Source of the DNA: Gammaproteobacteria bacterium
GTDB lineage: Bacteria > Pseudomonadota > Gammaproteobacteria > GCA-001735895
NCBI GenBank assembly: GCA_051277905.1
Contig: JBNMQI010000001.1
Span: forward strand, 1-60,810
Reading direction: 5' to 3'
DNA length: 60,810 nt
Positions 36,440-52,921 of the stretch are shown here, piece after piece (the first letter of the stretch is position 1; each line of letters opens with the position of its first letter). A model generated the notes under the pieces. The model saw only the letters and a list, made by a program, of their open reading frames with translations. It had not been told where the DNA came from and made no database searches. The translations under genes and the position numbers were made by a program.

Positions 36440-37665
36440 AATTCATCCCCCTTCGATAATATGTCCTTTATGCTCTTGGGCGATTCCTTCTCAAAGCGTT
36501 GCTCCAGTAACCGATCGAACGCCGAGCCATCTTGGCGGGTGAGGTTGGGTACATAGCGTGAGTACACACGAAACAGCATCTCGGTGGTGGTATGGCCCAT
36601 CTGTCGCGCAATCCACTCTGGGCTTTCCCCAGCAGCCAACCACAAGGTCGCAGCCGTATGGCGCGTCTGATAAGGGCGTCTTTGCTTGATCCCTAAATAG
36701 CGCAGCAATGGATACCACACGCGCTTAGTCACATTGTTATGTGATAAAGGCGTGTCATTGCGGGTTGAGAACACCAACTCCTGGCGGCGAGTCAGATTGC
36801 GCTGCTTCATCAGCGCGTCATACACCGGCTGCGACATATGAATCTCGCGTTGCGATCCATCCGTTTTGGTGTAAGTCATCTTGCCATCGACCACCGTTTC
36901 ACGAATTAAAATCTGGCGACGCTCAAAATCCACGTACTTCCACTTCAAGCCATCAATTTCACCGGTACGCATGCCCGTAAAGAAACGCACCGTGTAATAG
37001 GCTTTAAAATCCTCACGAACATTCGCCAGAATGAGCTGAACTTCTTCAATGGAGAACGGCTCGACATCCACTCTTTGAATTTTGAGAGATTTGACCCCTT
37101 TATAAGGTGAGGTAAACTCATAGCGGTCAGCGGCTTCATTCATAATCATCCTCAACGGGGTCATAACCTTGTTGATGGTGGCAGGCTTTAGTTCACTGTT
37201 TTTCCGCTTTGGATCTTTGGCGAGAGTGGAGCGGAAATTCAGGATGTCTGCTTTGGTGATGTCGTTGACTCTTTTACTACCCAACCTAGGAATCACGTAC
37301 GCATTAATATTCGTGATCACCGTCATCAAATGGCTGTCACGCCATTCGATCTTCTTCTCGGCAAGCCACAACTCAGTAAACTCCTCTAAGGTTGGAAAGC
37401 TAGCATCCACAGAGTAGGGCGAGAGCTTGGCCGCCAGTACTTTTTTGTCCAGTTCGTCAAAGAAATCCGCCTTCGCACTTTTAGGAAAGTAATCGCGATA
37501 AACGAATGTACCTAGGGTTATTTCTGCCTCGATACGCTCAACAATCTTTTTCAAACGCTGACGATGTTGCGGCGTGTCTTCGAACTTGGTTTGCTCTCGG
37601 CAGCGTTGTCCTTTGTACTGAAAGTTAATTCTCAATTTACCACTTCGGGCAATAATAGAAGCCAT
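36436..37665 (-). CDS. Tyrosine integrase (phage integrase family)
   Basis: 409 aa with an N-terminal arm/SAM-like region. Motifs: ..FFTGMRTGEIDGLKW.. (R), ..YQTRHTAATLWL.. (HxxR region), ..MGHTTTEMLFRVYSRY.. (H..Y). Confidence 0.92.
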   Translation of the reverse strand: MASIIARSGKLRINFQYKGQRCREQTKFEDTPQHRQRLKKIVERIEAEITLGTFVYRDYFPKSAKADFFDELDKKVLAAKLSPYSVDASFPTLEEFTELWLAEKKIEWRDSHLMTVITNINAYVIPRLGSKRVNDITKADILNFRSTLAKDPKRKNSELKPATINKVMTPLRMIMNEAADRYEFTSPYKGVKSLKIQRVDVEPFSIEEVQLILANVREDFKAYYTVRFFTGMRTGEIDGLKWKYVDFERRQILIRETVVDGKMTYTKTDGSQREIHMSQPVYDALMKQRNLTRRQELVFSTRNDTPLSHNNVTKRVWYPLLRYLGIKQRRPYQTRHTAATLWLAAGESPEWIARQMGHTTTEMLFRVYSRYVPNLTRQDGSAFDRLLEQRFEKESPKSIKDILSKGDEL

Positions 37666-38629: not shown

Positions 38630-40210
38630 ATGACAAGCTTGCAACAACGTGCCGAACTTCAACGCCAAATCTGGGCGATTGCCAACGATGTGCGTGGCTC
38701 AGTGGATGGCTGGGATTTTAAACAATATGTACTGGGAACGCTGTTCTACCGTTTTATCAGTGAAAACTTTGAAGCCTACATCACAGGCGGTGATGAAAGT
38801 GTTAATTATGCGGCCATGTGTGACGATGACGAAAACATCACGTTTGCTAAAGAGGATGCCATTCGTACAAAAGGCTATTTTCTTTACCCTAGCCAGTTGT
38901 TTAGCAATGTGGCGGCTAATGCACACAAAAACGAAAATTTAAATACGGATTTGGCGGCTATTTTTGCTGCAATCGAAAACTCAGCCAATGGCTATGATTC
39001 AGAAAAAGACATCAAAGGCTTGTTTGCGGATTTTGATACCACCAGTAATCGTCTGGGTAATACGGTAGAGGCAAAAAACAAACGCTTAGCCGCTGTGTTA
39101 AAAGGCGTGGCAGGTTTAACCTTCGGTAATTTTGAAGACAACCAAATTGATTTATTCGGTGATGCCTACGAGTTCCTGATTTCAAACTATGCCGCCAATG
39201 CGGGTAAATCCGGTGGCGAATTTTTTACCCCTCAGCACGTATCAAAATTGATTGCCCAACTCGCTATGCACGGCCAAACCAGCGTCAATAAAATCTATGA
39301 CCCTGCGGCGGGTTCGGGCTCTTTGCTGTTACAAGCCAAGAAACACTTTGATGCGCATATCATTGAAGATGGTTTTTTTGGCCAAGAGCTCAACCACACC
39401 ACCTACAACTTAGCGCGTATGAATATGTTTTTGCACAACATTAACTACGACAAGTTTAATATTCAGTTGGGTGATACCTTAACCGAACCGCACTTTTTAG
39501 ATGACAAACCCTTTGATGCTATTGTCTCTAACCCGCCTTATTCGGTGAAATGGATTGGTAGCGACGACCCAACCTTAATCAACGACGACCGCTTTGCGCC
39601 CGCTGGCGTACTTGCGCCTAAATCAAAAGCCGACTTTGCCTTCGTGCTGCATGCCCTAAGTTACCTATCAAGCAAAGGCCGCGCTGCAATTGTTTGTTTC
39701 CCCGGTATTTTTTACCGTGGCGGCGCTGAGCAAAAAATTCGCCAATATCTGGTTGATAACAACTATGTTGAAACAGTGATTTCATTGGCTCCTAACCTGT
39801 TCTTTGGCACCACTATTGCCGTGAATATTTTGGTGCTGTCTAAACACAAAACCGACACCACCACCCAGTTTATCGATGCCAGCGGTTTGTTTAAAAAAGA
39901 AACCAATAACAACGTTTTAACGGACAACGAAGACGAAAAAAATCCGGGTCATATTCAGCAAATTATGAAGGCGTTCGCCAGCAAAGAGAACGTGGATCAC
40001 TTTGCTAAATCGGTTGATTTGGACGTCATAGCAGGCAACAGCTACAACCTTTCGGTGAGCAGTTATGTAGAAGCGAAAGACAACCGCGAGCTAGTGGACA
40101 TTACAGAGCTTAATGCCGAACTTAAAACTACTGTCGCTAAAATTGATGCGCTTCGTAGTGATATTGATGCCATTGTTGCAGAGATTGAAGGTGAGGAGCT
40201 TGAAGCATGA
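38630..40210 (+). CDS. hsdM: Type I restriction-modification system, DNA methyltransferase subunit M
   Basis: 526 aa with an HsdM N-terminal domain (..[10 protein letters not shown]..), motif [11 protein letters not shown] and motif [12 protein letters not shown]. Confidence 0.95.
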
Positions 40211-41457
40211 ATCATTTGAGTTACATGGAAAAACTGCTAGATGGGGTTGAGGTTGAGTGGAAAAAGTTAGCTGATATTTTTCAGCTTAAGAATGGATATA
40301 CACCATCAAAATCAAAAAAAGAATTCTGGGAAAATGGAACTGTTCCATGGTTTAGAATGGACGATATCCGAGAAAATGGTCAAATTCTGGATGAATCGCT
40401 ACAGAAAGTCTCAGAGAGTGCAATCAAAGGTGGAAAGCTATTTCCTGAAAATTCAATAATAATTGCCACATCAGCAACTATTGGAGAGCACGCTTTGATT
40501 CGTGTTCCATTTTTAGCAAATCAGAGATTTACTAATTTGAGTTTAAAGCCAGTATATAAAGACACATTTAACAACAAGTTTATTTTCTACTACTGCTTTA
40601 TGTTGGCGGATTGGTGTAAAAAAAACACAACCATGTCTAGCTTTGCATCTGTTGATATGGATGGATTTAAAAAATATCCTTTCCCAATTCCATGCCCGAA
40701 TGATCCAAAAAAATCCCTGGAAATCCAGGCCGAAATAGTGCGCATTCTGGACGCATTTACCGCCATGACCGCCGAGCTGACCGCCGAGCTGACCGCCGAG
40801 CTTAACATGCGGAAAAAACAATACAACTACTACCGCGACCAGTTGTTAAGTGCTGAAAATGAAGGAGTAGAATGGAAAACATTAGAGCATATTTGTACCT
40901 CTATATCTGCTGGCGGAGATGTACCTAAAAATAGTTCTAAAGGTCAGACTGAGCCTACCGACGAATACCCATATCCAATTTATGCAAACGCTACAGGCGA
41001 AAAAGGATTATATGGTTTCACTGATGACTATAAAATTGACAGCGATGCAGTAACCATTTCTGCGCGTGGAGCAAAAGTCGGATACCACACTGTTCGAGAA
41101 GCTAAGTTCACACCAATTATTCGTCTAATTGTTTTAATAGCCAACAAAAATATAGTTAGTACGAGATATTTAAACTATGTTTTAGATATGACTCCCATTG
41201 GTGGTACTGAGGCTGGGATCCCGCAACTTACAGTTCCAATGGTCAAAAAGCTCACAGTTCCAATTCCTTTTCCAAATGACCCAAAAAAATCACTTATTGA
41301 GCAGGCTCGAATAGTTTCTATTTTGGATAAGTTCGACACCTTAACCACTTCGATCCAAGAAGGTCTCCCCCGCGAAATCGAGTTACGTCAAAAGCAATAC
41401 GAATACTACCACGACTTACTGTTGAACTTCCCCAAACCTATGGAGGAAACAGCGTAA
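40207..41457 (+). CDS. hsdS: Type I (IC family-like) specificity subunit S
   Basis: Two target recognition domains separated by conserved regions: ..[46 protein letters not shown].. and ..[52 protein letters not shown] overlap with hsdM. Confidence 0.93.
40768..40803 (+). repeat. Three tandem 12-bp repeats ACCGCCGAGCT(G/T) encoding TAEL x3 in the hsdS central conserved region
   Basis: ACCGCCGAGCTG ACCGCCGAGCTG ACCGCCGAGCTT, preceded by a partial ACCGCCATG. Confidence 0.95.
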
Positions 41458-43056
41458 ATGAGCGGTCAAATGTACAACCTGATCATGGCAAGCGTGCCTA
41501 GCTTTTACTCGGGCGATCAAGGGGAATTCACGATTCCGAAAGACAGGTTTCTTGAATACACGGAAGCCTCTATCAAAGGGCAATTTCAATCATTAGATCA
41601 GGGTGCAATAAATAAGCTCAAGAATCTGCCAACCATGTTTGCGGTCGAGGATGAAGTCGCTGATGCAAGAATTGGGAAAATTACCGATATTAAAGTTAAT
41701 TCTAATAATTTACGCATTAAATATAGATTTGACAAAGACTACTACCCATTAACCAGAGGGCTTCTAAAGGAGAAACAACAAAAATTAGATATCGATGATT
41801 TTGAGTTTCACCGGGGGCATTGGGCCGTTAAGAAATGTGATATTTCTGAATTTTATGGGGAGTATTTAAAATCGCTTGCAGGGATTGCCCATAAATTAAA
41901 GAATACTGATAAAAAGGTGCAGTTGATCTATGCCTTTAACGGCACAGGTAAAACGCGTTTGTCGCGTGAATTTAAAGAGATCATCGCGCCGAAAGACGAT
42001 GGGCAAGATGCGCTTGACGATGCAGAGCAAGCGCCACTGTCACGCCACAAGATTTTGTATTACAACGCGTTTACGGAAGACTTGTTTTACTGGGATAACG
42101 ACTTAGATGCTGATGCCGAGCCGAAGCTAAGAATTCAACCCAATACGTTTACCGATTGGATTTTGCAAGACCAAGGGCAAGACATGAACGTGATCAGCAC
42201 GTTCCAGCGTTATGCCAACGATAAACTAACGCCACGCTTTAATCCGCAATACACGGCTAAAGACAAAGACGGTAAAGACGTTACCGTCAAAGCCTTTTCT
42301 GAGGTGACGTTTTCACATCAAGGTGGCGATGACGAACCGGATAGAAAAATTAAAATATCAAAGGGTGAAGAAAGTAACTTTATTTGGAGTATTTTTTATT
42401 CATTGCTCGAACAAGTGATTAGCATCTTAAATGTACCAGAAGAAGCTGATCGCGAAACTGACCAGTTTAACCAATTAAAGTATGTGTTTATTGATGATCC
42501 AGTAAGTTCGTTAGATGACAACCATCTAATAGAGTTGGCTGTTGATTTAGCTCGTTTAATTAAGTCGAGTGATTTCGCTATTTCTGGCCTTAAGTTCATC
42601 ATCACTACTCATAATCCGCTTTTTTATAATGTTTTGCATAACGAGTTCAACAAAGCACCCAAGTTTGTTTTGCGCAATCTCGATGATGGCCAGCATGACC
42701 TGATTGAGCAAAAAAATGATTCGCCCTTCTCGTATCACCTGCATTTAAAGAATGAGTTAATGAAAGCAGCAGACTCAGGCGATATCCACAAGTACCACTT
42801 TAATTTTTTGCGAAATGTACTCGAAAAAACCTCAACGTTTTTGGGCTACGAAGAGTGGGGGGAGCTGTTGCCCGGTGTCAAAGGTGATCGGGCGGCAGGT
42901 AAAGTTAACCCGTATGCACGTGTGATTAACCTGTATAACCATGCAAAACACGCAGGCCATGAAGTGGCCGAAGTCGAAGAAGATCATAAGCGCGTCTTTA
43001 AGTTTTTAGTGAAAGAGATAGACAATATTTATAAAGGGACGAGAGCACCTTCATGA
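41458..43056 (+). CDS. ABC-type AAA ATPase with PrrC-like (anticodon nuclease-like) C-terminus and a unique about 150-aa N-terminal extension
   Basis: Walker A ..[12 protein letters not shown].. and Walker B/D-loop ..[14 protein letters not shown].. C-terminal ..FLRNVLEKT.. (R-x3-E) then ..[11 protein letters not shown].. The start abuts the hsdS stop (TAAATG). Confidence 0.7.
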
Positions 43057-43334
43057 GTAAACCTAACAAAACACACCTAACTAACATTCGCTCATCGGCT
43101 GCCGAGTATCTAACTTTTATCGCCGCAACCGGCGAAGGCGGTATTGAAGCGATTTATGCCGACGAGGATATTTGGTTAAGCCAAAAAATGATGGGCGTGT
43201 TGTACGATGTAGAAACTAATACCATTAACTATCATCTTAAAAAAATTTTTTCCGACAGTGAATTAGAAGAAAATTCAGTTATTCGAGATTTTCGAATAAC
43301 TGGCCGTGATGGTAACCATAAGGAGGCAGCTTAA
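43053..43334 (+). CDS. RhuM-family N-terminal fragment (93 aa; probably truncated)
   Basis: ..[48 protein letters not shown].. matches the start of RhuM-family proteins (about 330 aa as I recall). ATGA overlap upstream and TAATG overlap downstream. Confidence 0.6.
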
Positions 43335-44311
43335 TGGCCTATCAACCGCCGTTTACCATTACTAGTGAAATTGTCAATTTGGTGGCACAAATCAGCCAGC
43401 AGGTGGGTGAGTTAAACGCCAGCCAGCTCAATGCCTCGCCGCAACTGCGCAAGCAAAACCGCATTAAAACCATTACCGGCACGCTGGCGATTGAAGGCAA
43501 TACCTTAACCGAAGAACAGATCACTGCCATTGTTGAAGGTAAGCCCGTGCTGGGCAGCGTGCGCGAGCTGGCCGAGGTAAAAGGTGCAATTGCGGCTTAT
43601 GATGCACTGCCTAAATTCACACCCAGCTCCATTGACGATTTACTCGCTGCTCATGGTTTAATGCTGTCAGATATTCTGGTCAATGCGGGTGAGTTTCGCA
43701 GTAAAGGCGTGGGGATCCATAAAGCGGGTGTGGTGCACCACGTTGCACCGCCTGCGCATCAAGTATCCGGTTTAATGGCTGATTTAATCCAATGGCTCAA
43801 GCAAACAAAAGACCACCCATTGATCGCCAGTTGTGTATTTCATTACGAATTTGAGTTTATTCACCCCTTTGCCGATGGTAACGGTCGTATGGGGCGGTTA
43901 TGGCAAACGCTGATTTTGTCCAAGTGGCATCCGTTGTTTTTATCTTTGCCGCTAGAAAGTGTGATTAAAGACCATCAGCAAGCCTATTATCACGCCCTAG
44001 AGCAGGCAGATAACCAAGCGGATAGCACGCCGTTTATTCATTTTATGTTATCGGTTATTCAGCAAACACTTGCTCAAAACGCCTCTGTAAACGCCCCCGT
44101 AAATGCCCTTGTAAATTTATCTGAGCTTAAAACGCCTGAGGCCATTTTAGCCTTGCTTACTAGCACGCCCGAGCTAACCCGACAACAGCTCGCTGATACC
44201 TTGAATAAAGACGTTAGAACCATTGGTCGCGCCATTAGCAAGTTGCAAAAAGAAGGCAGGTTAACTCGGGTAGGTTCAGATAAAACCGGCCATTGGCAAG
44301 TCACTGAATAA
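43334..44311 (+). CDS. Fic family protein (AMPylase-type) with N-terminal inhibitory motif and C-terminal wHTH
   Basis: Canonical Fic motif HPFADGNGRMGR. A (S/T)xxxE(G/N) motif in ..TGTLAIEGNTL.. C-terminal ..LTRQQLADTLNKDVRTIGRAISKLQKEGRLTRVG.. Confidence 0.9.
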   Translation: MAYQPPFTITSEIVNLVAQISQQVGELNASQLNASPQLRKQNRIKTITGTLAIEGNTLTEEQITAIVEGKPVLGSVRELAEVKGAIAAYDALPKFTPSSIDDLLAAHGLMLSDILVNAGEFRSKGVGIHKAGVVHHVAPPAHQVSGLMADLIQWLKQTKDHPLIASCVFHYEFEFIHPFADGNGRMGRLWQTLILSKWHPLFLSLPLESVIKDHQQAYYHALEQADNQADSTPFIHFMLSVIQQTLAQNASVNAPVNALVNLSELKTPEAILALLTSTPELTRQQLADTLNKDVRTIGRAISKLQKEGRLTRVGSDKTGHWQVTE

Positions 44312-44374
44312 TGCGACGCCGTGGCTATTGCCATATTGGAAAACACCACGGCTAACAAAAAAGGATGTAAACGA

Positions 44375-47300
44375 ATGACAACGTATAAAACGGTTGCTGA
44401 ATCCAATAATTTTATTGTTTTGGATAAATACACTAAAGAATGGAAAGTTGCTGAGAACTTTCAAAGCGAAGGTGATTTAGAACGTGAGCTGATTCAGGAC
44501 CTAAGCAACCAGGGCTATGAGTATTTACCTGCGCTTACGACACCCGATGCCATGATGGCGAATGTGCGCAAACAGCTACAAGCCCTCAACAAGGTCCAGT
44601 TTACTGATGCCGAGTGGGCTCGCTTTTGCGAGCAATACCTGAACACACCCAGCGACAATATTCTCGACAAAACCCGCAAGGTGCACAGTGACTATATCTT
44701 CGATTTTGTCTTTGATGATGGCCATATAGAAAACATCTACCTGTTCGACAAGAAAACCATTGCTCGTAACAAAGTGCAGGTCATTAAGCAGTTTGAGCAA
44801 ACGGGCCAGTCTGCCGGACAGGCAGGAAGCCATGCCAACCGTTACGATGTGACGATTTTGGTCAATGGTTTGCCTTTGGTGCAAATCGAACTTAAAAAGC
44901 GTGGTGTGGCTATTCGTGAGGCGTTTAACCAAATACATCGCTACAGCAAAGAAAGCTTTAATGCAGAGAACTCCTTGTACAAGTTCTTGCAGCTGTTTGT
45001 GATCTCGAATGGCACCGACACGCGCTATTTTGCCAATACCACCAAGCGCGACAAGAACAGCTTCGATTTTACGATGAACTGGGCGAAGTCAGACAATACG
45101 CTGATCAAGGATTTAAAAGATTTTACCGCCACTTTTTTCCAGAAAGAGACCTTGCTTGAAGTAATCTTGCGTTACTCGGTATTTGATGTCAGTAACACCC
45201 TGCTAGTGATGCGCCCCTACCAGATTGCGGCCACTGAGCGTATTTTATGGAAGATAAAGAGCGCATTTAACGCTAAAAATTGGAGCTCTCCTAGTAATCA
45301 AAATAAGGAAAGCGGCGGGTACATTTGGCACACCACGGGTTCAGGCAAAACGCTCACCAGCTTTAAAGCGGCACGTTTGACCACCGATTTAGACTGTATC
45401 GATAAAGTCTTTTTTGTGGTGGACCGTAAAGACCTCGACTACCAGACCATGAAGGAATATCAGCGTTTCTCCCCTGATAGTGTGAATGGCTCAGACAGTA
45501 CCGCAGGGCTTAAGAGCAACCTGGATAAAGACGATAACAAGATTGTCGTTACCACTATTCAAAAGCTCAACAACTTAATCAAAAGCGAAAGCGATTTAGC
45601 GATATACAACAAGCAAGTGGTCTTTATTTTTGATGAGTGTCATCGAAGCCAGTTTGGTGAAGCGCAGAAAAACCTGAAGAAGAAATTCAAAAAGTACTAC
45701 CAGTTTGGCTTTACCGGTACGCCAATTTTCCCTGAAAACGCCTTGGGTGCTGAAACCACGGGCGACGTGTTTGGCCAGCAGTTGCACACGTATGTGATCA
45801 CGGATGCCATTCGTGATGAGAAAGTACTCAAATTCAAAGTGGACTATAACGATGTGCGCCCGCAATTTAAGAGCATTGAGACTGAGCAGGATGATAAAAA
45901 ACTGAGTGCAGCGGAAAACAAGCAAGCGTTTTTACATCCGATGCGTATTCGTGAAATCTCGCAGTATATTCTCAATCATTTTAATCAGAAAACTCATCGA
46001 GCTCATTCAGGTGCGAAAGGGTTTAACGCCATGTTTGCGGTCAGCAGTGTTGACGCGGCGAAAGCGTATTATGAAACCTTTAAAACATTACAGGCCGAGA
46101 CTGAACATGGCCCGACAAGTAAACCTCTGCGCATTGCGACTATCTTCTCATTTGCGGCCAATGAAGAGCAGGACGCCATTGGTGATATTTTAGATGAGAG
46201 CTTTGAAGTTAGCGCGATGAACAGCAGCGCAAAAGAGTTTTTGAGCGCCGCGATTAACGATTACAACGCCATGTTTAAATCTAACTATGGTGTGGACAGT
46301 AATGGCTTTCAAAATTATTACCGTGACCTTGCCCAGCGAGTGAAGAATCAAGAAATAGATCTGCTCATAGTGGTTGGTATGTTTTTAACGGGCTTTGATG
46401 CGCCTACGCTCAATACCTTGTTTGTTGACAAGAATTTGCGCTATCACGGCTTGATGCAGGCGTTTTCTCGCACCAATCGCATTTATGATGCGACGAAAAC
46501 CTTTGGCAATATTGTTACCTTCCGGGACTTGGAACAGGCAACCATTGACGCCATCACCTTGTTTGGTGACAAAAACACCAAAAACGTGGTGTTGGAGAAG
46601 AGCTACAAAGAATACATGGAAGGCTTTAACGATATTGTTACTGGCCAAGCGCGTCGAGGTTTTGTTGATATCGTAAAAGAGCTGCAAGAACGTTTTCCAA
46701 ACCCAGAAAATATTGAGAAAGAACAAGATAAAAAAGAATTTGCCAAGCTGTTTGGTGAATATCTAAAAGCAGAAAATATTTTACAAAACTACGATGAGTT
46801 TGCTGGATTAAAAGCACTGCAAAGCTTAGATACCAGTGATGAACAAGCTGTTGAAGCGTTCAAGTCAAAGTACTATCTGGTCGATACTGACATCGAGGCA
46901 ATGCAAACCATCGATATGCCGAGCGAGCGTGCTATTCAAGATTATCGCTCTACCTACAACGATACCCGCGACTGGTTGCGACGCGATAAAGAAGGTCAGG
47001 ACAAAGATAAGTCAACGGTAGACTGGGACGATGTGGTCTTTGAAATTGATTTGCTTAAATCGCAAGAAATCAACCTCGATTACATTCTTGAACTGATTTT
47101 TGATCACAATAAGAAGAACAAGAGCAAAGAAGGCTTGATTGAAGAAGTCCGCCGTATGATTCGCGGTAGCCTTGGCAATAGAGCGAAAGAGAGCTTAGTG
47201 GTTGATTTTATTAACCAGACAAATCTGGATGAGATCAATGACAAGGCCAGCATTATCGACGCCTTCTTCAAGTTCGCCCAGGCGGAACAGAAACGCGAAG

Positions 47301-47524
47301 CTGATGCCATTATTGCCTCTGAAAAGCTCAATATCGATGCTGCCAAACGCTATATTGCCTCATCACTCAAACGTGAGTACGCCTCTGAAAATGGCACTGC
47401 ACTTAATGAGGCGCTGCCCAAACTTAGCCCATTGAGCCCACAGTACCGAACCCAGAAGCAAACAGTTTTTCAGAAAATTGCCGCTTTTGTTGAGAAGTTT
47501 AAAGGTGTGGGTGGGCAGTTATAA
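44375..47524 (+). CDS. hsdR: Type I restriction enzyme, R subunit
   Basis: ..[12 protein letters not shown].. (Walker A), ..[10 protein letters not shown].. (DEAH-type motif II), ..FLTGFDAP.. and ..QAFSRTNR.. helicase motifs. Start set at ATG 44375 (AAGGA upstream) rather than GTG 44321. Confidence 0.94.
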
Positions 47525-47560
47525 AAGGCCTTTTAGAGAGGTATTAATGGAGGAAGCGGT

Positions 47561-48646
47561 TTGCTAAGAGCTATATCAGATTTGTTGGAGTATTCACCAG
47601 GACTGAAAGGACGTCAAATTGCCAAGGAGCTGAGACTGGATAAATCTCAAGTGAACTCGTTTCTTCACAAAAACCAGGATAAGTTTGTGAAAAACTCAAA
47701 TCATGAATGGAGCCTGATACGGGCTCATCACGTCGAAATTGATTTCGCTACCGGTTGGATTGATGATAAAGCCTTTGAGAGTGCTATCGGTAAGCTTGCG
47801 TATCAAAATGATGCCACAAAGGTAACATTTAAATTCGGCATCGATTGTAAGTTTTTGCTGATAGCATTGGCCCGTTTTCTTGCCCTCGCGAATCAGCTTA
47901 CTGCTATTGGGAAGGATGTGGTGATAGATACTACAGCATGTCCTAATACACACAGTTTTTTTAGCAGAAATGGCTTCTTTGATTATCTTAAGCAAAGTGT
48001 AACTTGTTTTCCTGAAAGGCCCGTTATGTCAGCTGCTAAAACTTATCGGGATAATAGCGATACCTTGGTCGAACTAGGAGAAATTGCACAGCCAACCCAA
48101 AACAAAGAGCTTGTGATTCGTTTGGGCGACAGGTTTGTAGAGCATTCTTCAGCTAGCTATTTCTTAGCGGCTAAGACTGTTTTTTCAGAGCTTGTAGGCA
48201 ACGTAACTGATCACAGTGAATCCCAAATACCCGGACTAGCAGGCCTGCAAGTATATCGACCGTATAATAAACCAAAGCATATTCAAACTGTTATATCCGA
48301 CTCTGGTTTAGGTATTGCCACTACCTTGAGAACAACGTTACAAAGTGAACATCCGAAGTTATACGCACAGTTTTCAGCAGAAACTGTTGAGAATGATATT
48401 TCGCTCGTTCAAAAAGCATTTACATCTGGTGAGGTTAGTCGTTTTGGTAAAGGCCGGGGGCTAGGCTTTAAGAGTAGTCGAGAGCACGCTAGTAAAGAGA
48501 AAGTTATCATTGTTATCAGGCAGCTAACTTTCTCATTGGCTTTGGAATACTCGAAGGGTCAACTTATCAATGTTTCTGAAGATCGGGGATTGGTCCCTAT
48601 AACAGGAACCCATATCTGTTTTGACTTCTATGTTGACAATTTCTGA
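47561..48646 (+). CDS. wHTH + GHKL (HATPase_c-like, RsbW/SpoIIAB-like) ATP-binding protein
   Basis: TTG start with a strong GGAGGAAG RBS. N-terminal ..GLKGRQIAKELRLDKSQVNSFLHKN.. GHKL boxes ELVGNVTDHS (N), DSGLGI (G1) and GRGLGF (G2). No TM helix and no HisKA H-box seen. Confidence 0.7.
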   Translation: MLRAISDLLEYSPGLKGRQIAKELRLDKSQVNSFLHKNQDKFVKNSNHEWSLIRAHHVEIDFATGWIDDKAFESAIGKLAYQNDATKVTFKFGIDCKFLLIALARFLALANQLTAIGKDVVIDTTACPNTHSFFSRNGFFDYLKQSVTCFPERPVMSAAKTYRDNSDTLVELGEIAQPTQNKELVIRLGDRFVEHSSASYFLAAKTVFSELVGNVTDHSESQIPGLAGLQVYRPYNKPKHIQTVISDSGLGIATTLRTTLQSEHPKLYAQFSAETVENDISLVQKAFTSGEVSRFGKGRGLGFKSSREHASKEKVIIVIRQLTFSLALEYSKGQLINVSEDRGLVPITGTHICFDFYVDNF

Positions 48647-48668
48647 TAAATAGTATCAACTTAAGCAG

Positions 48669-49220
48669 ATGAAACAGTTAACTCATAAAATTCTTCTTTC
48701 AGAAGTAGTAGGTTCTGATCATGCCTTTGGTAACGATGAAGGTAGTGAAGTCTATGTGAAGATTAAAAAGATCGTTGATGGACATCCATCATGCGATATT
48801 TTTGCTATTAGCTTGGAAGGGATTCGGTTCACTGATGCTTCATTTCCTCGTGAAAGTGTAATCTCGTTGGCTAAAGCATTAAAAGGTGAAAAAGGTTTTT
48901 ACCTTTCTAATGTTCCGAGTCGGGATCTTCTGGACAATTGGTCTTATGGCGCTAAAGCTAAAGATCAGCCTCTTCTAGTCAAGAGCGATAGCGGTTACGA
49001 AGTGCTCGGTGTGAAACTTAGTGCGACTGTCAAAGAGCTTCTAGATTTTGTTATTGCAAAAAAGACAGTGACTTCGTCACATGTATCTAAGCACTTTGAC
49101 ATTTCAGCACAGAATGCCAGTGGTCGATTGAAGAAGCTTCATGCTACAGGTCTTGTGTTAGGTCAAAAAGAAGTGGCAGAGTCAGGTGGACTGGAATTTG
49201 TCTACCGATCAATTTTGTAG
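48669..49220 (+). CDS. STAS-like (DUF4325-like) protein with C-terminal wHTH
   Basis: ..[20 protein letters not shown].. resembles the DUF4325 core. C-terminal ..[30 protein letters not shown].. Lies 22 nt after the GHKL gene. Confidence 0.6.
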
Positions 49221-49282
49221 TTTTTTTTGATTTTCTGGTTAATCTGATTGCGTTAATCAGAATTGAAGTTTATTGTTTGATC

Positions 49283-49304
49283 AGATCCTTTGGATCTTTT
49301 TTAT
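49283..49304 (+). terminator. Rho-independent terminator after the GHKL/STAS-like pair
   Basis: AGATCC-ttt-GGATCT followed by TTTTTATT. Confidence 0.6.
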
Positions 49305-49349
49305 TAATATCTGATAAATGTGATTAATTTAAGCAGAATAGGAGGCTAT

Positions 49350-49523
49350 ATGGCTACAAATCCCCCATCAGGTGACGGACACAGAAACGGTGCCGTTAAA
49401 GGTAGATCTCAGACTCAGACGCCAAGCGGACATTGGGTAAAGCGAGATGCTGATACTGGTCGATTCATGGATATAAAGACATCCGACAAAACACCTTTTA
49501 AAGATGTCAGGAAGGAGAAATAG
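49350..49523 (+). CDS. Small basic hypothetical protein (57 aa)
   Basis: ATG preceded by AGGAGG. MATNPPSGDGHRNGAVKGRSQTQTPSGHWVKRDADTGRFMDIKTSDKTPFKDVRKEK. Confidence 0.55.
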   Translation: MATNPPSGDGHRNGAVKGRSQTQTPSGHWVKRDADTGRFMDIKTSDKTPFKDVRKEK

Positions 49524-49893
49524 TTTGGCTAATGGTAAAACCCATTTGGTCGTCGGGGCTGCGGTTGGTTTAACCGTTGCCCTGGCGGACAACAAAAAAC
49601 AAGCGGTCAGTCACCATCCTGTAACTGCCATTACGGTTGGCTCTCTATTTGGCAAGCTTCCAGATATTTTGGAACCCTCTTTGGGTAACCCTCACCATCG
49701 CCAGTTTTGCCACAGTCTATTGGTGTTAACTGCACTAGGTGTTGGTCTCAAACATTTGTATGAGTGGCAACCGGAAGAGGCAATTGATAAGTGTCTTCGC
49801 GGGCTGGGGCTAATCGCTGGATGTGCTTATGTCAGCCATTTGCTCTGTGATGCGACAACACCGCGCTCACTTCCTTTAATTGGTAAACTATAG
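49504..49893 (+). CDS. Membrane-bound metal-dependent hydrolase-like protein (YdjM/DUF457-like)
   Basis: ..GKTHLVVGAAVG.., ..PDILEPSLGNPHHRQFCHSLL.., ..SHLLCDATTPRSLPLIG. The real start may be TTG at about 49525, after AGGAGA. Confidence 0.6.
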   Translation: MSGRRNSLANGKTHLVVGAAVGLTVALADNKKQAVSHHPVTAITVGSLFGKLPDILEPSLGNPHHRQFCHSLLVLTALGVGLKHLYEWQPEEAIDKCLRGLGLIAGCAYVSHLLCDATTPRSLPLIGKL

Positions 49894-49902
49894 GAGTTTT
49901 GA

Positions 49903-51057
49903 ATGGTCGCTAAAGTCACAAGACCCATAGACCGTAAAGTTGAGCGAGAACTTTGGGCTCGTGCCGCTGCTCGTTGTCAGTTTAGCGGGTGTAATAAATT
50001 GCTATACAAATCAGCGGTGACTCAGGAATCGGTCAATGTCTCTCAAAATGCTCATATTTACGCATTTTCTGAGAATGGGCCTCGTGGTTGGGGACTCTTT
50101 AAAACTAAGCCAACCAGCTTGAATGACGTCAGCAACCTCATGTTGATGTGCTATGACTGTCACAAAAAAATTGACCAGAAAGGCAGCGAAGATAGGTATC
50201 CAGCCGACCTCTTGATTAGTTGGAAAATGCAGCATGAGCAACGAATAGAAATCCTCACAGGCATTGCTCCTGATCGCAAATCAAATGTTGTCTTATATGG
50301 TGCCAATATTGGAACCGAAAGATCACCGATGAATTATCACGGTTGTGTTGAGGCAATGTTTCCGAATTGGTATCCGGCAACTGAAAAGCCAGTGACACTA
50401 TCCATGGTATCAGAGCTGAAAGATCACTCTGAACAATATTGGCAAGCAGAGTCGCAACACCTAACGAAGCGTTTTCAAAGTAAAATTTCATCGATCATCG
50501 AAGAGGATTCTTGTAAGCATTTTTCATTGTTCGCGTTAGCTCCTCAACCATTGTTAATAAAACTTGGCGCTTTGCTCACCGACAAAATTGATGTCGAGAC
50601 TTATCAGCTGCATCGAGAGCCTAAAGGCTGGTTTTGGCAAGACTGTTCAGATGATTTTGAGTACATCATCAACAGACCTCAAAATATGGAGGGAAAGCCA
50701 GCCCTGGTACTTTCTTTGAGTGACCATGTGTCGCATGAGCGAATTACTCGGGTTATAGGGCCAGATACATCGATTTGGGAAGTGACTATCAAGCACCCTC
50801 ATAATGATTTCATGCAGTCAAAGCAGCAGCTCTCCTTGTTCAGGAAGTGCATAAGAAAACTGATTGTTGAAATCAAGAATACACACGGCGATGCGACTCC
50901 ACTGCAAATTTTTCCTGTGATGCCAGTATCGTGTGCCGTCGAATTAGGACGGGCCAGAATGCCTAAGGCTGATATGCCATGGCTTATTTATGACCACGAC
51001 ATAAAAACACAACAATTTGTAATGGCAGTCGAGCTTCGAGGAGATCTCCATGAGTAA
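49903..51057 (+). CDS. cap5: CBASS effector, HNH endonuclease + SAVED-like sensor (Cap5-like)
   Basis: N-terminal HNH: ..CQFSGCNKLLY..NAHIYAFSENGPRG..NLMLMCYDCHKKID.. The about 270-aa C-terminal domain is called SAVED by architecture and context only. AGGAG RBS and an 8-nt overlap with the cyclase gene. Confidence 0.7.
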   Translation: MVAKVTRPIDRKVERELWARAAARCQFSGCNKLLYKSAVTQESVNVSQNAHIYAFSENGPRGWGLFKTKPTSLNDVSNLMLMCYDCHKKIDQKGSEDRYPADLLISWKMQHEQRIEILTGIAPDRKSNVVLYGANIGTERSPMNYHGCVEAMFPNWYPATEKPVTLSMVSELKDHSEQYWQAESQHLTKRFQSKISSIIEEDSCKHFSLFALAPQPLLIKLGALLTDKIDVETYQLHREPKGWFWQDCSDDFEYIINRPQNMEGKPALVLSLSDHVSHERITRVIGPDTSIWEVTIKHPHNDFMQSKQQLSLFRKCIRKLIVEIKNTHGDATPLQIFPVMPVSCAVELGRARMPKADMPWLIYDHDIKTQQFVMAVELRGDLHE

Positions 51058-52240
51058 TACTAAAAGTAACGATGTTCTAAACACAATTCTGGAAAAAATT
51101 GAACTACCAGACAGTGCTTATGAAAAGGCTGAAAAACGCTATAAGGATCTAGGTGATTGGTTACATCGCCCAGAGTCAACATGCGTGAATTTTGATCCCC
51201 ACGTGTTTTCTCAAGGTTCCTTTCGTCTAGGTACGGCGATTAGGCCCGATTCAGAAGAACAGTATGACCTAGACATGGGTTGCAATCTTCGGCGTGGCCT
51301 GGATAAAACGTCCATCACTCAAAAGCAATTAAAGCACCTAGTCGGTCATGAATTAGAGCTTTATCGAAACGCCAGAGGCATTAAGGAAGAGCTAGTCGAG
51401 AAAAAACGCTGTTGGCGCTTAGAGTATGCCGATGGGCTTAGCTTTCACATGGATATAGTTCCGTGTGTGCCAGAGAGTGATACAGGAAGAGGCCTTTTGA
51501 AAAAGCGGATGGTCGAAAACTCTAAGTTTGATGAAAACTTGGCTCAAAGCGTGTCTCAGCTTGCAGTTTCGATTACCGACAACACAGATTCCACTTATGC
51601 AGTTGTGAATGAAAACTGGCGTATCAGCAATCCTGAAGGATATGCTCGATGGTTTGAAACGCGCATGAAAACCGCGCGTTTAGTAATAAACGAACGCGAA
51701 ATGCGATTTAAAGCCAGTATAGATAGTCTGCCATATTATCAATGGAAGACACCCTTACAGCAGGTTATCCAATTATTGAAGCGTCATCGTGACACTATGT
51801 TTAAGAATAATGAGGATAGTAAGCCAATATCGGTAATTATCACTACATTGGCTGCTAAATCATATAAAGGTGAAAGTGATTTGGCTTCAGCGTTGAATAC
51901 GGTGCTCTCCGAGATGGATGACTATATTTCTGCACAAGCGCCAATGATTCCGAATCCAGTCAATCCAGCCGAAGATTTTGCAGACAAGTGGTATGACGAA
52001 AAATCTGCTCAATACCGATTGCAAGAAAATTTTTATAAATGGCTATATCAAGCTAGAGCTGATTTTAGTGCTCTTTGTTCAAGTGATGATACGCAACGAA
52101 TAGTAAATGCGGCGCAAAATGGTTTGGATCTGAAGCTTGATTCAAGTTCGGTAGCACGTCTCTTGGGTATTCCTGCGGTAACAACAAAACCAACGTTCGC
52201 AATTCAATCATCTGACCCAAAGCCATGGTTTAAGCAATAG
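51050..52240 (+). CDS. CD-NTase (cGAS/DncV-like cyclic oligonucleotide synthase)
   Basis: Pol-beta NTase motifs: ..SQGSFRLGTAIRP.. (GS), ..YDLDMGC.. (DxD), ..SFHMDIVPC.. (third Asp). 396 aa. Confidence 0.78.
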   Translation: MSNTKSNDVLNTILEKIELPDSAYEKAEKRYKDLGDWLHRPESTCVNFDPHVFSQGSFRLGTAIRPDSEEQYDLDMGCNLRRGLDKTSITQKQLKHLVGHELELYRNARGIKEELVEKKRCWRLEYADGLSFHMDIVPCVPESDTGRGLLKKRMVENSKFDENLAQSVSQLAVSITDNTDSTYAVVNENWRISNPEGYARWFETRMKTARLVINEREMRFKASIDSLPYYQWKTPLQQVIQLLKRHRDTMFKNNEDSKPISVIITTLAAKSYKGESDLASALNTVLSEMDDYISAQAPMIPNPVNPAEDFADKWYDEKSAQYRLQENFYKWLYQARADFSALCSSDDTQRIVNAAQNGLDLKLDSSSVARLLGIPAVTTKPTFAIQSSDPKPWFKQ

Positions 52241-52921
52241 ATGAAGCACTGGAAGGCTGTAGGCCTAGAGGCTTTTCTCTCGGCCTATCCGAACATTAGA
52301 TTAGTAGATGTCCATGCAGATAAGATTGAGTTGCAGGGAGAGTATCAGTTAAAAGCACAGCTAGCTGGAAGTCGGTTTATTGAGCGAACATTTTCTCTAA
52401 GGATTATATGCCCAAGTGATTATCCTAGGGCTTTACCTGTGGTGTTTGATACAGCTGGTTACTTTCCTCGTAAGCAGGACTTCCATACTTACTCTGATGG
52501 ATCATTTTGTCTTGGCTCAGACCTGAAAATTAAGTCAATTTTAAAAACCGACTCGTCATTGACAACCTTTTTCGAAAAGATTGTTGTCAGGTTTCTTTAT
52601 TCGGTGTCCCATCGGGTTGAATTTGGCAACTTTCCATATGGCGAACTGGACCATGGTGAGAAAGGCCTGATTGATGATTATTCTCAGTTGTTCAATGTCA
52701 ATGGTAAAGCATCAGTTCTACGGGCTCTGAAAGCGTTAGGTTTGCGCAAGCGTGAGGCAAATAAATTACCTTGTCCATGTGGTTGTGGTGATCGTCTTGG
52801 CTCGTGTGACTATCGGTTTGTCTTGAACGAGTTTCGTCAAGTTGAGCGTCGCCGATGGTTTCGCGCTCATCTATTCGAAGCTTTTACACCGATTCCCCCC
52901 CCCCGAAAAGAGATCTGGTAG
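52241..52921 (+). CDS. E2-like ubiquitin-conjugating-fold protein (short type II CBASS Cap2-like), SEC-C-like Cys cluster at the C-terminus
   Basis: ..FHTYSDGSFCLGSD.. (E2-like H..G..C catalytic Cys context). ..LPCPCGCGDRLGSCDY.. The start abuts the cyclase stop (TAGATG). Confidence 0.6.
   Translation: MKHWKAVGLEAFLSAYPNIRLVDVHADKIELQGEYQLKAQLAGSRFIERTFSLRIICPSDYPRALPVVFDTAGYFPRKQDFHTYSDGSFCLGSDLKIKSILKTDSSLTTFFEKIVVRFLYSVSHRVEFGNFPYGELDHGEKGLIDDYSQLFNVNGKASVLRALKALGLRKREANKLPCPCGCGDRLGSCDYRFVLNEFRQVERRRWFRAHLFEAFTPIPPPRKEIW

What the first reader, a model, noticed from the sequence alone, without database searches (positions are those of the whole stretch)
47561..49304. Unclassified two-gene module in the defence cluster: wHTH-GHKL ATPase plus STAS-like/wHTH protein (partner-switching-like)
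Seen in sequence:
- A compact pair with a 22-nt gap, a strong GGAGGAAG RBS and its own terminator at 49283-49304, wedged between hsdR and the CBASS region.
- Protein 1 has Bergerat-fold boxes (ELVGNVTDHS, DSGLGI, GRGLGF) but no TM segment and no histidine phosphotransfer H-box. It therefore resembles the anti-sigma serine kinases RsbW/SpoIIAB, fused to an N-terminal wHTH.
- Protein 2 has a DUF4325/STAS-like N-terminal half (..[18 protein letters not shown]..) and a C-terminal wHTH.

Established knowledge: GHKL kinase plus STAS antagonist pairs form partner-switching modules.

Inference: I know of no named anti-phage system with this composition. Given the strict defence-island context, this is a plausible undescribed defence or defence-regulating system.
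Basis: partly seen in the sequence, partly recalled or inferred. Interest (0 to 1): 0.7.

Follow-up and report, generated by a model that had tools for sequence, protein, structure and literature searches.

The report
CapK–CapS regulator of a CBASS operon
The two genes are real, but they are the recently published CapK kinase and CapS repressor, a DNA-damage switch that turns on the neighbouring CBASS anti-phage operon, so they are not an undescribed defence system.

Summary
Two ORFs (47561-48646, 361 aa; 48669-49220, 183 aa) lie 22 nt apart between hsdR and a CBASS operon. They carry the stated Bergerat boxes, and a terminator-like hairpin follows them.

The pair is not unclassified. It is CapK (HTH-STAS-GHKL kinase) plus CapS (STAS-wHTH repressor), described by Chambers et al., EMBO J 2026 (PMC13373217; preprint February 2026). 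The window's CapS differs at only three aligned positions from the crystallised V. cholerae 964015 CapS (PDB 9Z72/9Z73). One of those three is the engineered S58A.

In the published model, ssDNA from DNA damage activates CapK. CapK phosphorylates the conserved CapS serine (S58 here). The CapS dimer then falls apart and leaves its TTAA-palindrome operators, and the downstream immune operon is de-repressed.

The window has both operator types between capS and the next gene: wide at 49239-49256 and narrow at 49324-49332. These sites are strongly enriched at the same positions in 85 related loci.

The novelty claim and the DUF4325 label were not.

The residual interest is a very conserved 57-aa gene (49350-49523, PADLOC PDC-S38). 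The papers I read do not discuss it.

The parts
47549..47556 (+). Shine-Dalgarno GGAGGAAG of capK
   Evidence: Read directly from the sequence. hsdR stops at 47524, and the scan finds no + strand promoter or terminator between hsdR and capK. Co-transcription with hsdR is therefore plausible, but this is inferred.
47561..48646 (+). capK: HTH (about residues 1-53), STAS-like domain (about 57-175) and GHKL kinase (about 178-361)
   Evidence: ORF. More than 350 homologues of about 360 aa. The N-box Asn214, the G1 and G2 boxes and Trp66 are invariant. AF2 model has pLDDT 85.7. Foldseek matches Hsp90, GyrB and SpoIIAB (1til_E, probability 1.0). Pfam HATPase_c is sub-threshold at E 4e-4. The architecture equals published CapK.
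48633..48664 (+). capS promoter-like element inside the capK 3' end: -35 TTGACA (48633-48638), a 17-nt spacer, then a degenerate narrow CapS site TCAACTTAA (48656-48664)
   Evidence: TTGAC(A/T) is conserved at the same place across loci. In 33 of 85 loci TTAAnTTAA lies just upstream of the capS ATG, mostly starting 13 nt before it. The window subfamily has one mismatch. This matches the published 'promoter #1 / narrow palindrome'.
48669..49220 (+). capS: N-terminal STAS domain with the phospho-acceptor Ser58 (TDAS58FPRES), and a C-terminal MarR-like wHTH (about residues 115-183)
   Evidence: PDB 9z72/9z73 at E 1.9e-89, with only 3 differences including the engineered S58A. S58, N149, K155 and G173-G174 are invariant. 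AF2 model has pLDDT 90.6. MarR_2 at E 1.7e-5.
49239..49256 (.). Wide CapS operator TTAA-N10-TTAA (TTAATCTGATTGCGTTAA)
   Evidence: One of only 2 matches in the 60.8-kb window. A wide site is present after capS in 53 of 85 loci, against a background of 0.006 per 240 bp. Half-site and spacing are as published.
49283..49304 (+). Intrinsic-terminator-like hairpin (AGATCC TTT GGATCT) plus T-run, lying between the two operators
   Evidence: Found by the scan. Conserved in position, with differing stem sequences, in 47 of 75 distinct intergenic regions, against 0.9% of shuffles.
49324..49332 (.). Narrow CapS operator TTAATTTAA, 17 nt upstream of the ATG of the next gene
   Evidence: A narrow site sits 83-105 nt after the capS stop in 38 of 85 loci. 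Alignment of the intergenic regions shows a conserved ctgATAAA...TTAAnTTAAgcaga block.
49350..49523 (+). Conserved 57-aa basic protein (PADLOC candidate PDC-S38), the first gene after the CapS operators. RBS AGGAGG at 49340-49345.
   Evidence: PDC-S38 over its full length, E 3e-31. No Pfam hit. 1990 homologue clusters, of which the best 120 are 82-95% identical. Codon-position differences of 0.13/0.10/0.61 indicate a real coding gene. Present in 57 of 89 capKS loci.
49504..49893 (+). YdjM-family small membrane protein, between the 57-aa gene and the CBASS effector
   Evidence: Pfam YdjM at E 1.3e-14. No PADLOC hit. Present at this position in 25 of 81 species-level loci.
49903..52921 (+). Regulated cargo, a CBASS operon: HNH-SAVED effector (49903-51057), CD-NTase (51050-52240) and an E2-like protein (52241-52921)
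   Evidence: Pfam SAVED/HNH_2 and DncV-like NTase/SMODS. PADLOC SAVED_HNH effector at 2.5e-154, cyclase at 2.7e-126 and E2 at 2.1e-99.
38630..47524 (+). Upstream type I R-M operon with embedded PrrC-like and SoFic genes: hsdM, hsdS, AAA_13/PrrC, Fic, hsdR
   Evidence: Pfam. PADLOC PrrC at 9e-143, SoFic at 3e-49 and REase_I. A same-strand hsdR or hsdS ends directly upstream of capK in 30 of 70 species-level loci.

Best explanation
The pair is CapK-CapS, a DNA-damage-responsive kinase/repressor switch that controls the CBASS operon just downstream.

**Resting state.** CapS (48669-49220) is a STAS-wHTH protein. As a dimer it binds palindromes made of TTAA half-sites. In this window those are a wide site (49239-49256) and a narrow site (49324-49332) in the capS-to-cargo intergenic region, plus a degenerate narrow site over its own promoter at the end of capK. 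Binding keeps the 57-aa gene, the ydjM-like gene and the CBASS genes off.

**Induced state.** CapK (47561-48646) has an HTH, a STAS-like domain and a GHKL kinase domain. [quoted passage not shown] Active CapK phosphorylates CapS on Ser58. This breaks the CapS dimer, releases it from DNA and de-represses the operon.

**Shown here.** Gene structure, domain folds, conserved catalytic and acceptor residues, near-identity to crystallised CapS, operator motifs and their conservation, the conserved terminator, and the cargo and R-M context.

**Shown in the literature for orthologues (E. roggenkampii and V. cholerae proteins).** Repression, ssDNA-activated phosphorylation of the conserved serine, dimer loss and TTAA binding.

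**Inferred for this window.** That the same circuit controls this particular CBASS operon, and that capK is read through from hsdR.
For: **Identity with the published proteins**
- The CapS profile hits PDB 9z72/9z73 at E 1.9e-89. The aligned sequence differs from the window at only 3 positions (V28A, K96T and the engineered S58A).
- The paper that deposited 9Z72 defines CapK as HTH-STAS-GHKL and CapS as STAS-wHTH. It states that capS always follows capK, that 75 of 443 loci precede CBASS and that 88 of 443 follow an R-M system.
- The V. cholerae 964015 CapS crystal structure is the S58A mutant.
- The 90% clusters containing the window's proteins include V. cholerae 'ATP-binding protein' and 'MarR family transcriptional regulator' entries.

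**Folds and residues**
- CapK: GHKL fold and invariant N214, G1, G2 and W66.
- CapS: invariant S58, N149, K155 and G173-174. These match the published S54, N145, K151 and G169-170 with a +4 offset.

**Operators**
- Both the narrow and the wide TTAA palindromes fall in the 129-nt capS-to-next-gene spacer.
- Across 85 loci, a narrow site lies just upstream of the capS start in 33, a narrow site lies downstream in 38 and a wide site lies downstream in 53. Background is about 0.005 per 240 bp (alignments).

**Synteny and cargo**
- capS is directly downstream of capK in 87 of 89 loci.
- The cargo here is a CBASS operon.

**Published mechanism:**
Against: - Nothing was tested experimentally for this window.
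- The reporter, ChIP-seq and kinase assays in the paper used the E. roggenkampii locus, whose CapS is 41% identical and whose cargo is a Bub operon. The V. cholerae-type proteins were used only for crystal structures and a co-purification.
Autoregulation may therefore differ from the published case.
- A conserved terminator lies between the wide and narrow sites, and the paper sections I read do not mention it.
- Pfam hits to HATPase_c and MarR_2 are below the gathering thresholds.
- Foldseek did not return a STAS structure for the CapS model. The STAS assignment rests on the published crystal structure of the near-identical protein.
- The published role of CapK's N-terminal HTH is unknown.
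Confidence: 0.93

Rival explanations
1. A stand-alone, undescribed two-gene anti-phage defence system, in which the GHKL ATPase and the STAS/wHTH protein themselves provide immunity.
For: The pair sits in a strict defence-island context between a type I R-M operon and CBASS. It is widely mobile, with 93-95% identical copies in many genera.
Against: - Neither protein has an effector domain.
- There is no PADLOC model for either.
- Among 443 capK-capS loci in the published survey, 348 were followed by a known or predicted immune operon. Cargo types seen here include CBASS, Bub, DUF4747, Thoeris and YegP.
- Published deletions show a repressor/activator phenotype on the downstream operon.
Confidence: 0.03
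2. An accessory or regulator of the upstream type I restriction-modification system, for example controlling hsdR expression or restriction alleviation, rather than of the CBASS operon.
For: A same-strand hsdR or hsdS ends directly upstream of capK in 30 of 70 species-level loci, mostly within 100 nt. One database protein is an hsdR-C-terminus/CapK fusion call (P0009). No promoter or terminator is predicted between hsdR and capK.
Against: - 40 of 70 loci have no adjacent type I gene.
- All conserved TTAA operators lie at the capS promoter and downstream of capS, not upstream of the hsd genes.
- Published data show control of the downstream operon. The authors propose only that R-M-generated damage could feed into CapK.
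Confidence: 0.04
3. A classical partner-switching module of the SpoIIAB/SpoIIAA or RsbW/RsbV type, controlling an alternative sigma factor.
For: The CapK model matches SpoIIAB in Foldseek (1til_E, probability 1.0). A conserved serine sits in a STAS domain at the SpoIIAA Ser58-equivalent position.
Against: - No sigma-factor or PP2C phosphatase gene was found among the 19 neighbouring ORFs scanned.
- The STAS protein carries its own DNA-binding wHTH, so the output is direct repression.
- The kinase has extra HTH and STAS domains that anti-sigma factors lack.
Confidence: 0.01
4. A VapKSC-type toxin-antitoxin system, in which the STAS protein is an antitoxin released from a PIN toxin on phosphorylation.
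For: The same paper describes VapK/VapS, which are paralogous to CapK/CapS.
Against: - There is no PIN/VapC gene next to the pair.
- Protein B has a full wHTH rather than VapS's short C-terminal helix, and matches CapS at all but three aligned positions.
- Protein A keeps the N-terminal HTH; VapK is described only as having CapK-like STAS and GHKL domains.
Confidence: 0.01

Closest known systems
CapK + CapS ('Controller of associated pathways', Kinase and STAS). Chambers, Rani, Min, Villa & Corbett, EMBO J 2026;45:5079 (PMC13373217); structures PDB 9Z71 (E. roggenkampii CapS) and 9Z72/9Z73 (V. cholerae 964015 CapS S58A)
   Same: - Gene order, sizes (361 and 183 aa) and domain architectures.
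- The conserved N-box Asn, the Trp in the STAS/GHKL groove, the acceptor Ser58 and the DNA-contact residues.
- TTAA half-site operators in both narrow and wide spacing.
- A CBASS operon downstream and a type I R-M operon upstream. The paper says this sandwich accounts for nearly 20% of loci.
- CapS differs at only three aligned positions from the crystallised V. cholerae protein.
   Different: - In this subfamily the narrow site at the capS promoter is degenerate, and a perfect narrow site lies in the downstream spacer together with the wide site.
- A conserved intrinsic-terminator-like hairpin separates the two downstream sites.
- A conserved 57-aa gene and a ydjM-like gene lie between the operators and CBASS.
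- The paper sections I read (Results parts 1-4 and Discussion) do not mention the hairpin, and term searches of the main text found no mention of the 57-aa gene.
SpoIIAB/SpoIIAA and RsbW/RsbV anti-sigma kinase / STAS antagonist pairs
   Same: A GHKL serine kinase phosphorylates a conserved Ser at the start of helix 2 of a STAS domain. Phosphorylation switches the partner's interactions.
   Different: - No sigma factor is involved, and no phosphatase was found in the locus.
- The STAS protein is itself a wHTH repressor, and its dimer is broken by phosphorylation.
- The kinase carries extra HTH and STAS domains and is switched on by ssDNA.
CapW/BrxR (WYL) and CapH+CapP (HTH plus M78 peptidase), the other regulators of CBASS/BREX/Bub operons
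   Same: They work alike: a repressor at the promoter of an adjacent immune operon is released in response to DNA damage or ssDNA. The same 57-aa gene follows all three regulator types.
   Different: The protein families and chemistry are unrelated. CapW acts through ligand-induced conformational change and CapH/CapP through repressor cleavage, whereas CapK/CapS acts through serine phosphorylation.
VapKSC toxin-antitoxin system (same paper)
   Same: A paralogous ssDNA-activated GHKL kinase and a STAS substrate.
   Different: VapS lacks the wHTH and inhibits a PIN nuclease, VapC. This window has no PIN gene.

Membership tests
CapK-CapS | CapK is about 360 aa, with an N-terminal HTH, a central STAS-like domain and a C-terminal GHKL kinase domain | tested here: met
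   AF2 model has pLDDT 85.7 with three domains. Foldseek matches GHKL proteins including SpoIIAB. Pfam HATPase_c at residues 205-312 and HTH_69 at 7-50 are both sub-threshold. The middle domain is called STAS on the basis of the paper; I did not search that domain on its own.
CapK-CapS | A catalytic N-box asparagine (E. roggenkampii N218) and an ssDNA-contacting tryptophan (W68) are conserved in CapK | tested here: met
   N214 and W66 are invariant in 25 homologues at 44-88% identity.
CapK-CapS | capS lies immediately downstream of capK. It has a STAS domain plus a wHTH, about 183 aa, with an absolutely conserved phospho-acceptor serine. | tested here: met
   capS is directly downstream of capK in 87 of 89 loci. 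S58 is invariant. The sequence differs at only three aligned positions from PDB 9Z72, V. cholerae CapS S58A. MarR_2 wHTH.
CapK-CapS | CapS operators are palindromes of TTAA half-sites spaced by 1 bp (narrow) or 10 bp (wide), at the capS promoter and in the capS-to-cargo spacer | tested here: met
   In the window, the wide site is at 49239-49256, the narrow site at 49324-49332 and a degenerate narrow site at 48656-48664. Of 85 loci, a site is present at the expected place in 33 (narrow upstream), 38 (narrow downstream) and 53 (wide downstream), against about 0.005 expected.
CapK-CapS | Followed by an immune or stress operon (CBASS, Bub, Thoeris, DUF4747, YegP and others) | tested here: met
   HNH-SAVED, CD-NTase and E2.
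CapK-CapS | ssDNA-stimulated phosphorylation of CapS, loss of the dimer and of DNA binding, and de-repression on DNA damage | not testable with these tools
   Shown for orthologues in PMC13373217.
SpoIIAB/RsbW-type partner switching | The kinase is an anti-sigma factor with a cognate sigma factor, usually with a PP2C phosphatase in the locus | tested here: not met
   No sigma-factor or PP2C family was found among the 19 neighbouring ORFs scanned.
Pfam DUF4325 (PF14213, STAS-like) | A match to the family HMM | tested here: not met
   No hit for protein B, even at E<=1.
Two-component sensor histidine kinase | A HisKA/H-box dimerisation and phosphotransfer domain upstream of HATPase_c | tested here: not met
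   Pfam reports only a sub-threshold HATPase_c. The region upstream is an alpha/beta STAS-like domain.
VapKSC | A third gene encoding a PIN/VapC toxin, and a VapS without a wHTH | tested here: not met
   The neighbours are a 57-aa protein with no Pfam hit and a YdjM-like protein. No PIN family was found. Protein B has a wHTH.
Known stand-alone defence systems (PADLOC-DB v2) | A match to a defence-system protein model | tested here: not met
   Only chance-level hits for A (DrmA at E 0.0034) and wHTH-only hits for B.

The most novel reading that the evidence does not exclude
The pair itself is known. The open piece is the 57-aa protein encoded right after the CapS operators (49350-49523, PADLOC candidate PDC-S38).

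- Its family is very large, with 1990 clusters. The best 120 homologue clusters are 82-95% identical to it. CapK homologues spanning comparable taxa are only about 45-50% identical.
- In a sample of 66 metagenomic copies with enough upstream sequence, it is the first gene behind CapS in 25, behind a divergent WYL (CapW-like) regulator in 15 and behind HTH_3 + M78 (CapH/CapP-like) pairs in 11. This holds whatever cargo follows.

The most novel reading my evidence does not exclude is that this protein is an undescribed, shared component of DNA-damage-induced immune operons. It could be a feedback, priming or effector-licensing factor that acts on a conserved host target. Under this reading it is not a passenger gene.
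Probability: 0.35. Interest if true: 0.55.

Novelty: already known. Interest (0 to 1): 0.15.

Why it matters
For annotation, the two 'ATP-binding protein' and 'MarR family' genes should be labelled capK and capS. The CBASS operon downstream should be read as DNA-damage-inducible, not constitutive. The locus is a clean natural example of the R-M / CapKS / abortive-infection sandwich that the authors propose couples first-line restriction to second-line immunity.

The finding adds nothing new about the pair itself. Three details of local architecture could be useful to people working on the system:
- a conserved terminator between two operators;
- the relocated narrow site in the V. cholerae-type subfamily;
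- the ubiquitous 57-aa first gene shared with CapW- and CapH/P-regulated operons.

Tried and rejected
- **Family libraries on both proteins.** Pfam, NCBIfam and PADLOC gave only sub-threshold HATPase_c and wHTH hits, with no DUF4325 and no defence model. On their own these would have left the pair 'unclassified'.
- **Literature search for 'DUF4325'.** Nothing relevant was found.
- **Search on type I R-M embedded genes.** This turned up RptR and TgvAB, which are different proteins, so I rejected them.
- **Foldseek of the full CapK model.** Only low-TM GHKL matches were returned, because the model has several domains.
- **Foldseek of the CapS model.** Only wHTH, ESCRT-II and Csa3 matches were returned, with no STAS hit. 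The structure library (releases up to April 2026) did not return 9Z72.
- **Sequence search of PDB chains.** This is what identified the protein.
- **CapK profile against PDB sequences.** The only hit was a marginal Z-alpha-like match for the N-terminal HTH (E 0.046), which I did not pursue.
- **Mapping the paper's CapK residue numbers through Salmonella and Citrobacter homologues.** This failed because their numbering differs.
- **Is the 57-aa gene the paper's 'YegP homologue'?** No. It has no DUF1508 hit, and in P. aeruginosa loci it precedes a separate DUF1508 gene.
- **Window-wide counts of the two operator patterns.** Alone they are not significant. Their significance comes from co-location and cross-locus conservation.
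- **Searches for 'PDC-S38' and for a small protein in the Bub and CapKS papers.** Nothing was found.
Full report
**1. The observation**

The two ORFs exist as described. A is 47561-48646 (+), with a TTG start, 361 aa. B is 48669-49220 (+), 183 aa. They are separated by 22 nt, and GGAGGAAG lies just upstream of the TTG.

The Bergerat boxes ELVGNVTDHS (from residue 210), DSGLGI (247) and GRGLGF (298) are present. Their key residues are invariant in 25 homologues of 44-88% identity.

The hairpin plus T-run at 49283-49304 is picked up by the terminator scan.

The context is a type I R-M operon upstream and a CBASS operon downstream:
- Upstream: hsdM, hsdS, a PrrC-like AAA_13 gene, SoFic and hsdR.
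- Downstream: a YdjM-like gene, HNH-SAVED, CD-NTase and E2.

- Pfam finds no DUF4325 in B, even at E<=1.

**2. What the standard libraries say**

Pfam, NCBIfam and PADLOC give only sub-threshold HATPase_c and wHTH hits, and no defence model. Both proteins belong to compact, well-conserved families of more than 350 clusters each, annotated only as 'ATP-binding protein' and 'MarR/wHTH/DNA-binding protein'.

The AF2 models are confident: CapK has pLDDT 85.7 and pTM 0.81, and CapS has pLDDT 90.6 and pTM 0.86. The model of A matches Hsp90, GyrB and SpoIIAB, so it has a GHKL fold. The model of B matches winged-helix repressors.

**3. Identification**

A profile of B searched against the sequences of all PDB chains hits 9z72/9z73 ('MarR family transcriptional regulator', 185 aa) at E 1.9e-89, and 9z71 at 6e-64. 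The aligned 9z72 sequence differs from the window's B at three positions. One of them turns the otherwise invariant Ser58 into Ala, which marks an engineered mutant.

A full-text search for '9Z72' and for STAS/GHKL/anti-phage terms led to Chambers, Rani, Min, Villa & Corbett, EMBO J 2026 (PMC13373217; bioRxiv 5 Feb 2026).

[quoted passage not shown] It reports the following:
- There are 443 loci in which capS always follows capK.
- 348 of these are followed by immune operons, including 75 CBASS.
- 88 lie directly downstream of an R-M system.
- CapS is a dimeric repressor that binds TTAA half-site palindromes. The narrow type has 1-bp spacing and sits at the capS promoter. The wide type has 10-bp spacing and sits before the cargo.
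- CapK is activated by ssDNA and phosphorylates the conserved serine (S54 in E. roggenkampii, S58 in V. cholerae).
- Phosphorylation breaks the dimer and de-represses transcription on mitomycin C or levofloxacin treatment.
- The crystallised V. cholerae 964015 protein is the S58A mutant.

The window's exact proteins are annotated in marine gammaproteobacterial MAGs. They share 90% clusters with V. cholerae, Klebsiella, Shewanella and other copies.

**4. Membership tests done here**

- **Architecture and residues.** CapK N214 and W66 are invariant. CapS S58, N149, K155 and G173-174 are invariant and match the published S54, N145, K151 and G169-170 with a +4 offset.
- **Synteny.** capS directly follows capK in 87 of 89 loci. 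The two exceptions are at contig ends.
- **Operators in the window.**
  - The 129-nt spacer after capS contains one of only two TTAA-N10-TTAA matches in the whole window (49239-49256). It also contains one of four TTAAnTTAA matches (49324-49332).
  - The window-wide counts alone are not significant.
- **Operators across 85 loci**:

| Site | Loci with site (of 85) |
|---|---|
| Narrow, just upstream of the capS ATG (mostly 13 nt before it) | 33 |
| Narrow, downstream of the capS stop (mostly 83-105 nt) | 38 |
| Wide, downstream of capS | 53 |

  The background expectation is about 0.005-0.006 per 240 bp for either pattern.
- **Promoter at the capK 3' end.** The alignments show a conserved TTGAC(A/T) -35 box encoded by the last codons of capK, a 17-nt spacer and then the narrow site overlapping the -10. 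The capS ATG lies only a few nucleotides beyond. In the window's subfamily this narrow site is degenerate (TCAACTTAA, 48656-48664).
- **Cargo.** The downstream genes are a CBASS operon: a SAVED-HNH effector (PADLOC 2.5e-154), a cyclase (2.7e-126) and an E2 (2.1e-99).

All sequence-testable defining features are met. The biochemical ones cannot be tested here.

**5. Mechanism for this window**

The best-supported reading, at confidence about 0.93, runs as follows:
- At rest, CapS dimers occupy the wide and narrow sites and keep the 57-aa gene, the ydjM-like gene and the CBASS genes silent.
- ssDNA from DNA damage activates CapK.
- CapK phosphorylates Ser58 of CapS.
- CapS becomes monomeric and leaves the DNA.
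- The operon is induced.

The steps from ssDNA sensing onward are taken from the orthologue experiments, not shown for this locus.

hsdR stops 36 nt before capK, and no promoter or terminator is predicted between them. capK may therefore be read through from the R-M operon, which is an inference. The authors' idea that restriction-generated damage feeds CapK fits this layout. In my species-level sample, a same-strand hsdR or hsdS ends directly upstream of capK in 30 of 70 loci.

**6. Small additions to the published picture**

- **A conserved terminator.**
  - An equivalent GC-rich hairpin plus T-run lies 42-66 nt into the post-capS region (counted from the capS stop codon) in 46 of 75 distinct spacers, and at 25 nt in one more.
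  - Shuffled sequences show this in 0.9% of cases. The stems differ in sequence, so the structure is conserved and the sequence is not.
  - The hairpin sits between the wide site and the narrow site. It would insulate the cargo from capK-capS (and hsd) read-through, leaving cargo expression dependent on a promoter next to the narrow site. This is inferred.
- **A relocated narrow site.** In the V. cholerae-type subfamily the perfect narrow site has moved from the capS promoter to the downstream spacer.

**7. Noticed in passing: the 57-aa gene (49350-49523)**

It has an AGGAGG RBS, and it matches PADLOC's single-gene candidate PDC-S38 over its full length (E 3e-31). It has no Pfam hit.

It is a real coding gene under strong purifying selection. 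Among 92 distinct DNA copies, pairwise differences per codon position are 0.13, 0.10 and 0.61.

The family has 1990 clusters. The best 120 are 82-95% identical to it, with almost every residue conserved.

It follows capS in 57 of 89 capKS loci. It does so whether the cargo is CBASS, Bub, DUF4747, YegP/DUF1508 or Thoeris.

I drew a pattern-based sample of 80 metagenomic copies; 66 had enough upstream sequence to classify:

| Upstream neighbour of the 57-aa gene | Loci (of 66) |
|---|---|
| CapS | 25 |
| Divergent WYL protein (CapW-like) | 15 |
| HTH_3 + Peptidase_M78 (CapH/CapP-like) | 11 |
| Something else | 15 |

The 'something else' group includes two loci with a carB-type carbamoyl-phosphate synthase gene upstream. 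A similar lone copy occurs in a Sinirhodobacter genome.

In the non-CapKS loci the gene that follows it is again often ydjM-like (5) or a Bub multi-ubiquitin (4).

It is not the paper's 'YegP homologue'. In P. aeruginosa it precedes a separate DUF1508 gene.

I found no discussion of it in the CapKS paper, the Bub preprint or any full text containing 'PDC-S38'. Its function is unknown.

**8. Verdict**

However, the pair is the already named and mechanistically characterised CapK-CapS regulator. Novelty is 'already known', and interest is low (0.15). The only open thread is the shared 57-aa first gene of Cap-regulated operons.

Noticed in passing
window 49350-49523 (+); also L004, L008, L089-L107, L108-L187: A conserved 57-aa basic protein (consensus MATNPPxGDGHRNGAVRxRSQTQTPSGHWVKRDAxTGRFMDVKTSDKTPFKGVRKEK), equal to PADLOC candidate PDC-S38. 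It is the first gene behind CapS. In other loci it is the first gene behind CapW-like WYL regulators and CapH/CapP-like pairs, whatever the cargo. The family has 1990 clusters, the best 120 of them 82-95% identical to it, and shows a clear coding signature. The papers I read do not discuss it.
   Followed up: partly
window 49283-49304 (+) and the equivalent position in 47 of 75 related spacers: The terminator-like hairpin between the wide and narrow CapS operators is conserved in position and form but not in sequence. It is present in 47 of 75 distinct spacers, against 0.9% of shuffles. This suggests deliberate insulation of the cargo operon from capK-capS and hsd read-through.
   Followed up: yes
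window 48633-48668: The last codons of capK encode a conserved TTGAC(A/T) -35 box. With a 17-nt spacer, the -10/narrow operator ends only about 4-7 nt before the capS ATG, and there is no Shine-Dalgarno sequence. A transcript from this promoter would therefore be leaderless or nearly so. In the window's subfamily the operator is degenerate (TCAACTTAA).
   Followed up: partly
window 49504-49893 (+): A YdjM-family small membrane protein lies between the 57-aa gene and the CBASS effector. It is present there in 25 of 81 species-level capKS loci, and it also follows the 57-aa gene in 5 loci with other regulators. It has no PADLOC model. To my knowledge E. coli ydjM belongs to the LexA/SOS regulon, which would fit a DNA-damage theme.
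   Followed up: partly
window 41458-43056 (+) and 43334-44311 (+): The type I R-M operon carries two embedded defence genes between hsdS and hsdR. One is a PrrC-like anticodon-nuclease homologue (PADLOC PrrC, 9e-143). The other is a SoFic protein with a C-terminal wHTH (3e-49).
   Followed up: no
L009-L021 versus window: CapK copies 93-95% identical to the window's occur with the same hsdR upstream and CBASS downstream in many genera (Thalassotalea, Shewanella, Vibrio, Marinomonas, Alteromonas, Aliidiomarina, Methyloprofundus, Porticoccus). This indicates recent horizontal spread of the whole R-M/capKS/CBASS block. A tyrosine integrase lies at window 36436-37665 (-).
   Followed up: no
CapK residues 1-46 (window 47561-47698): The N-terminal HTH of CapK gives a marginal profile match to the Z-alpha (Z-DNA/RNA-binding) domain of fish PKZ (E 0.046). 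The paper reports that deleting this HTH has no phenotype, so its role is open.
   Followed up: no
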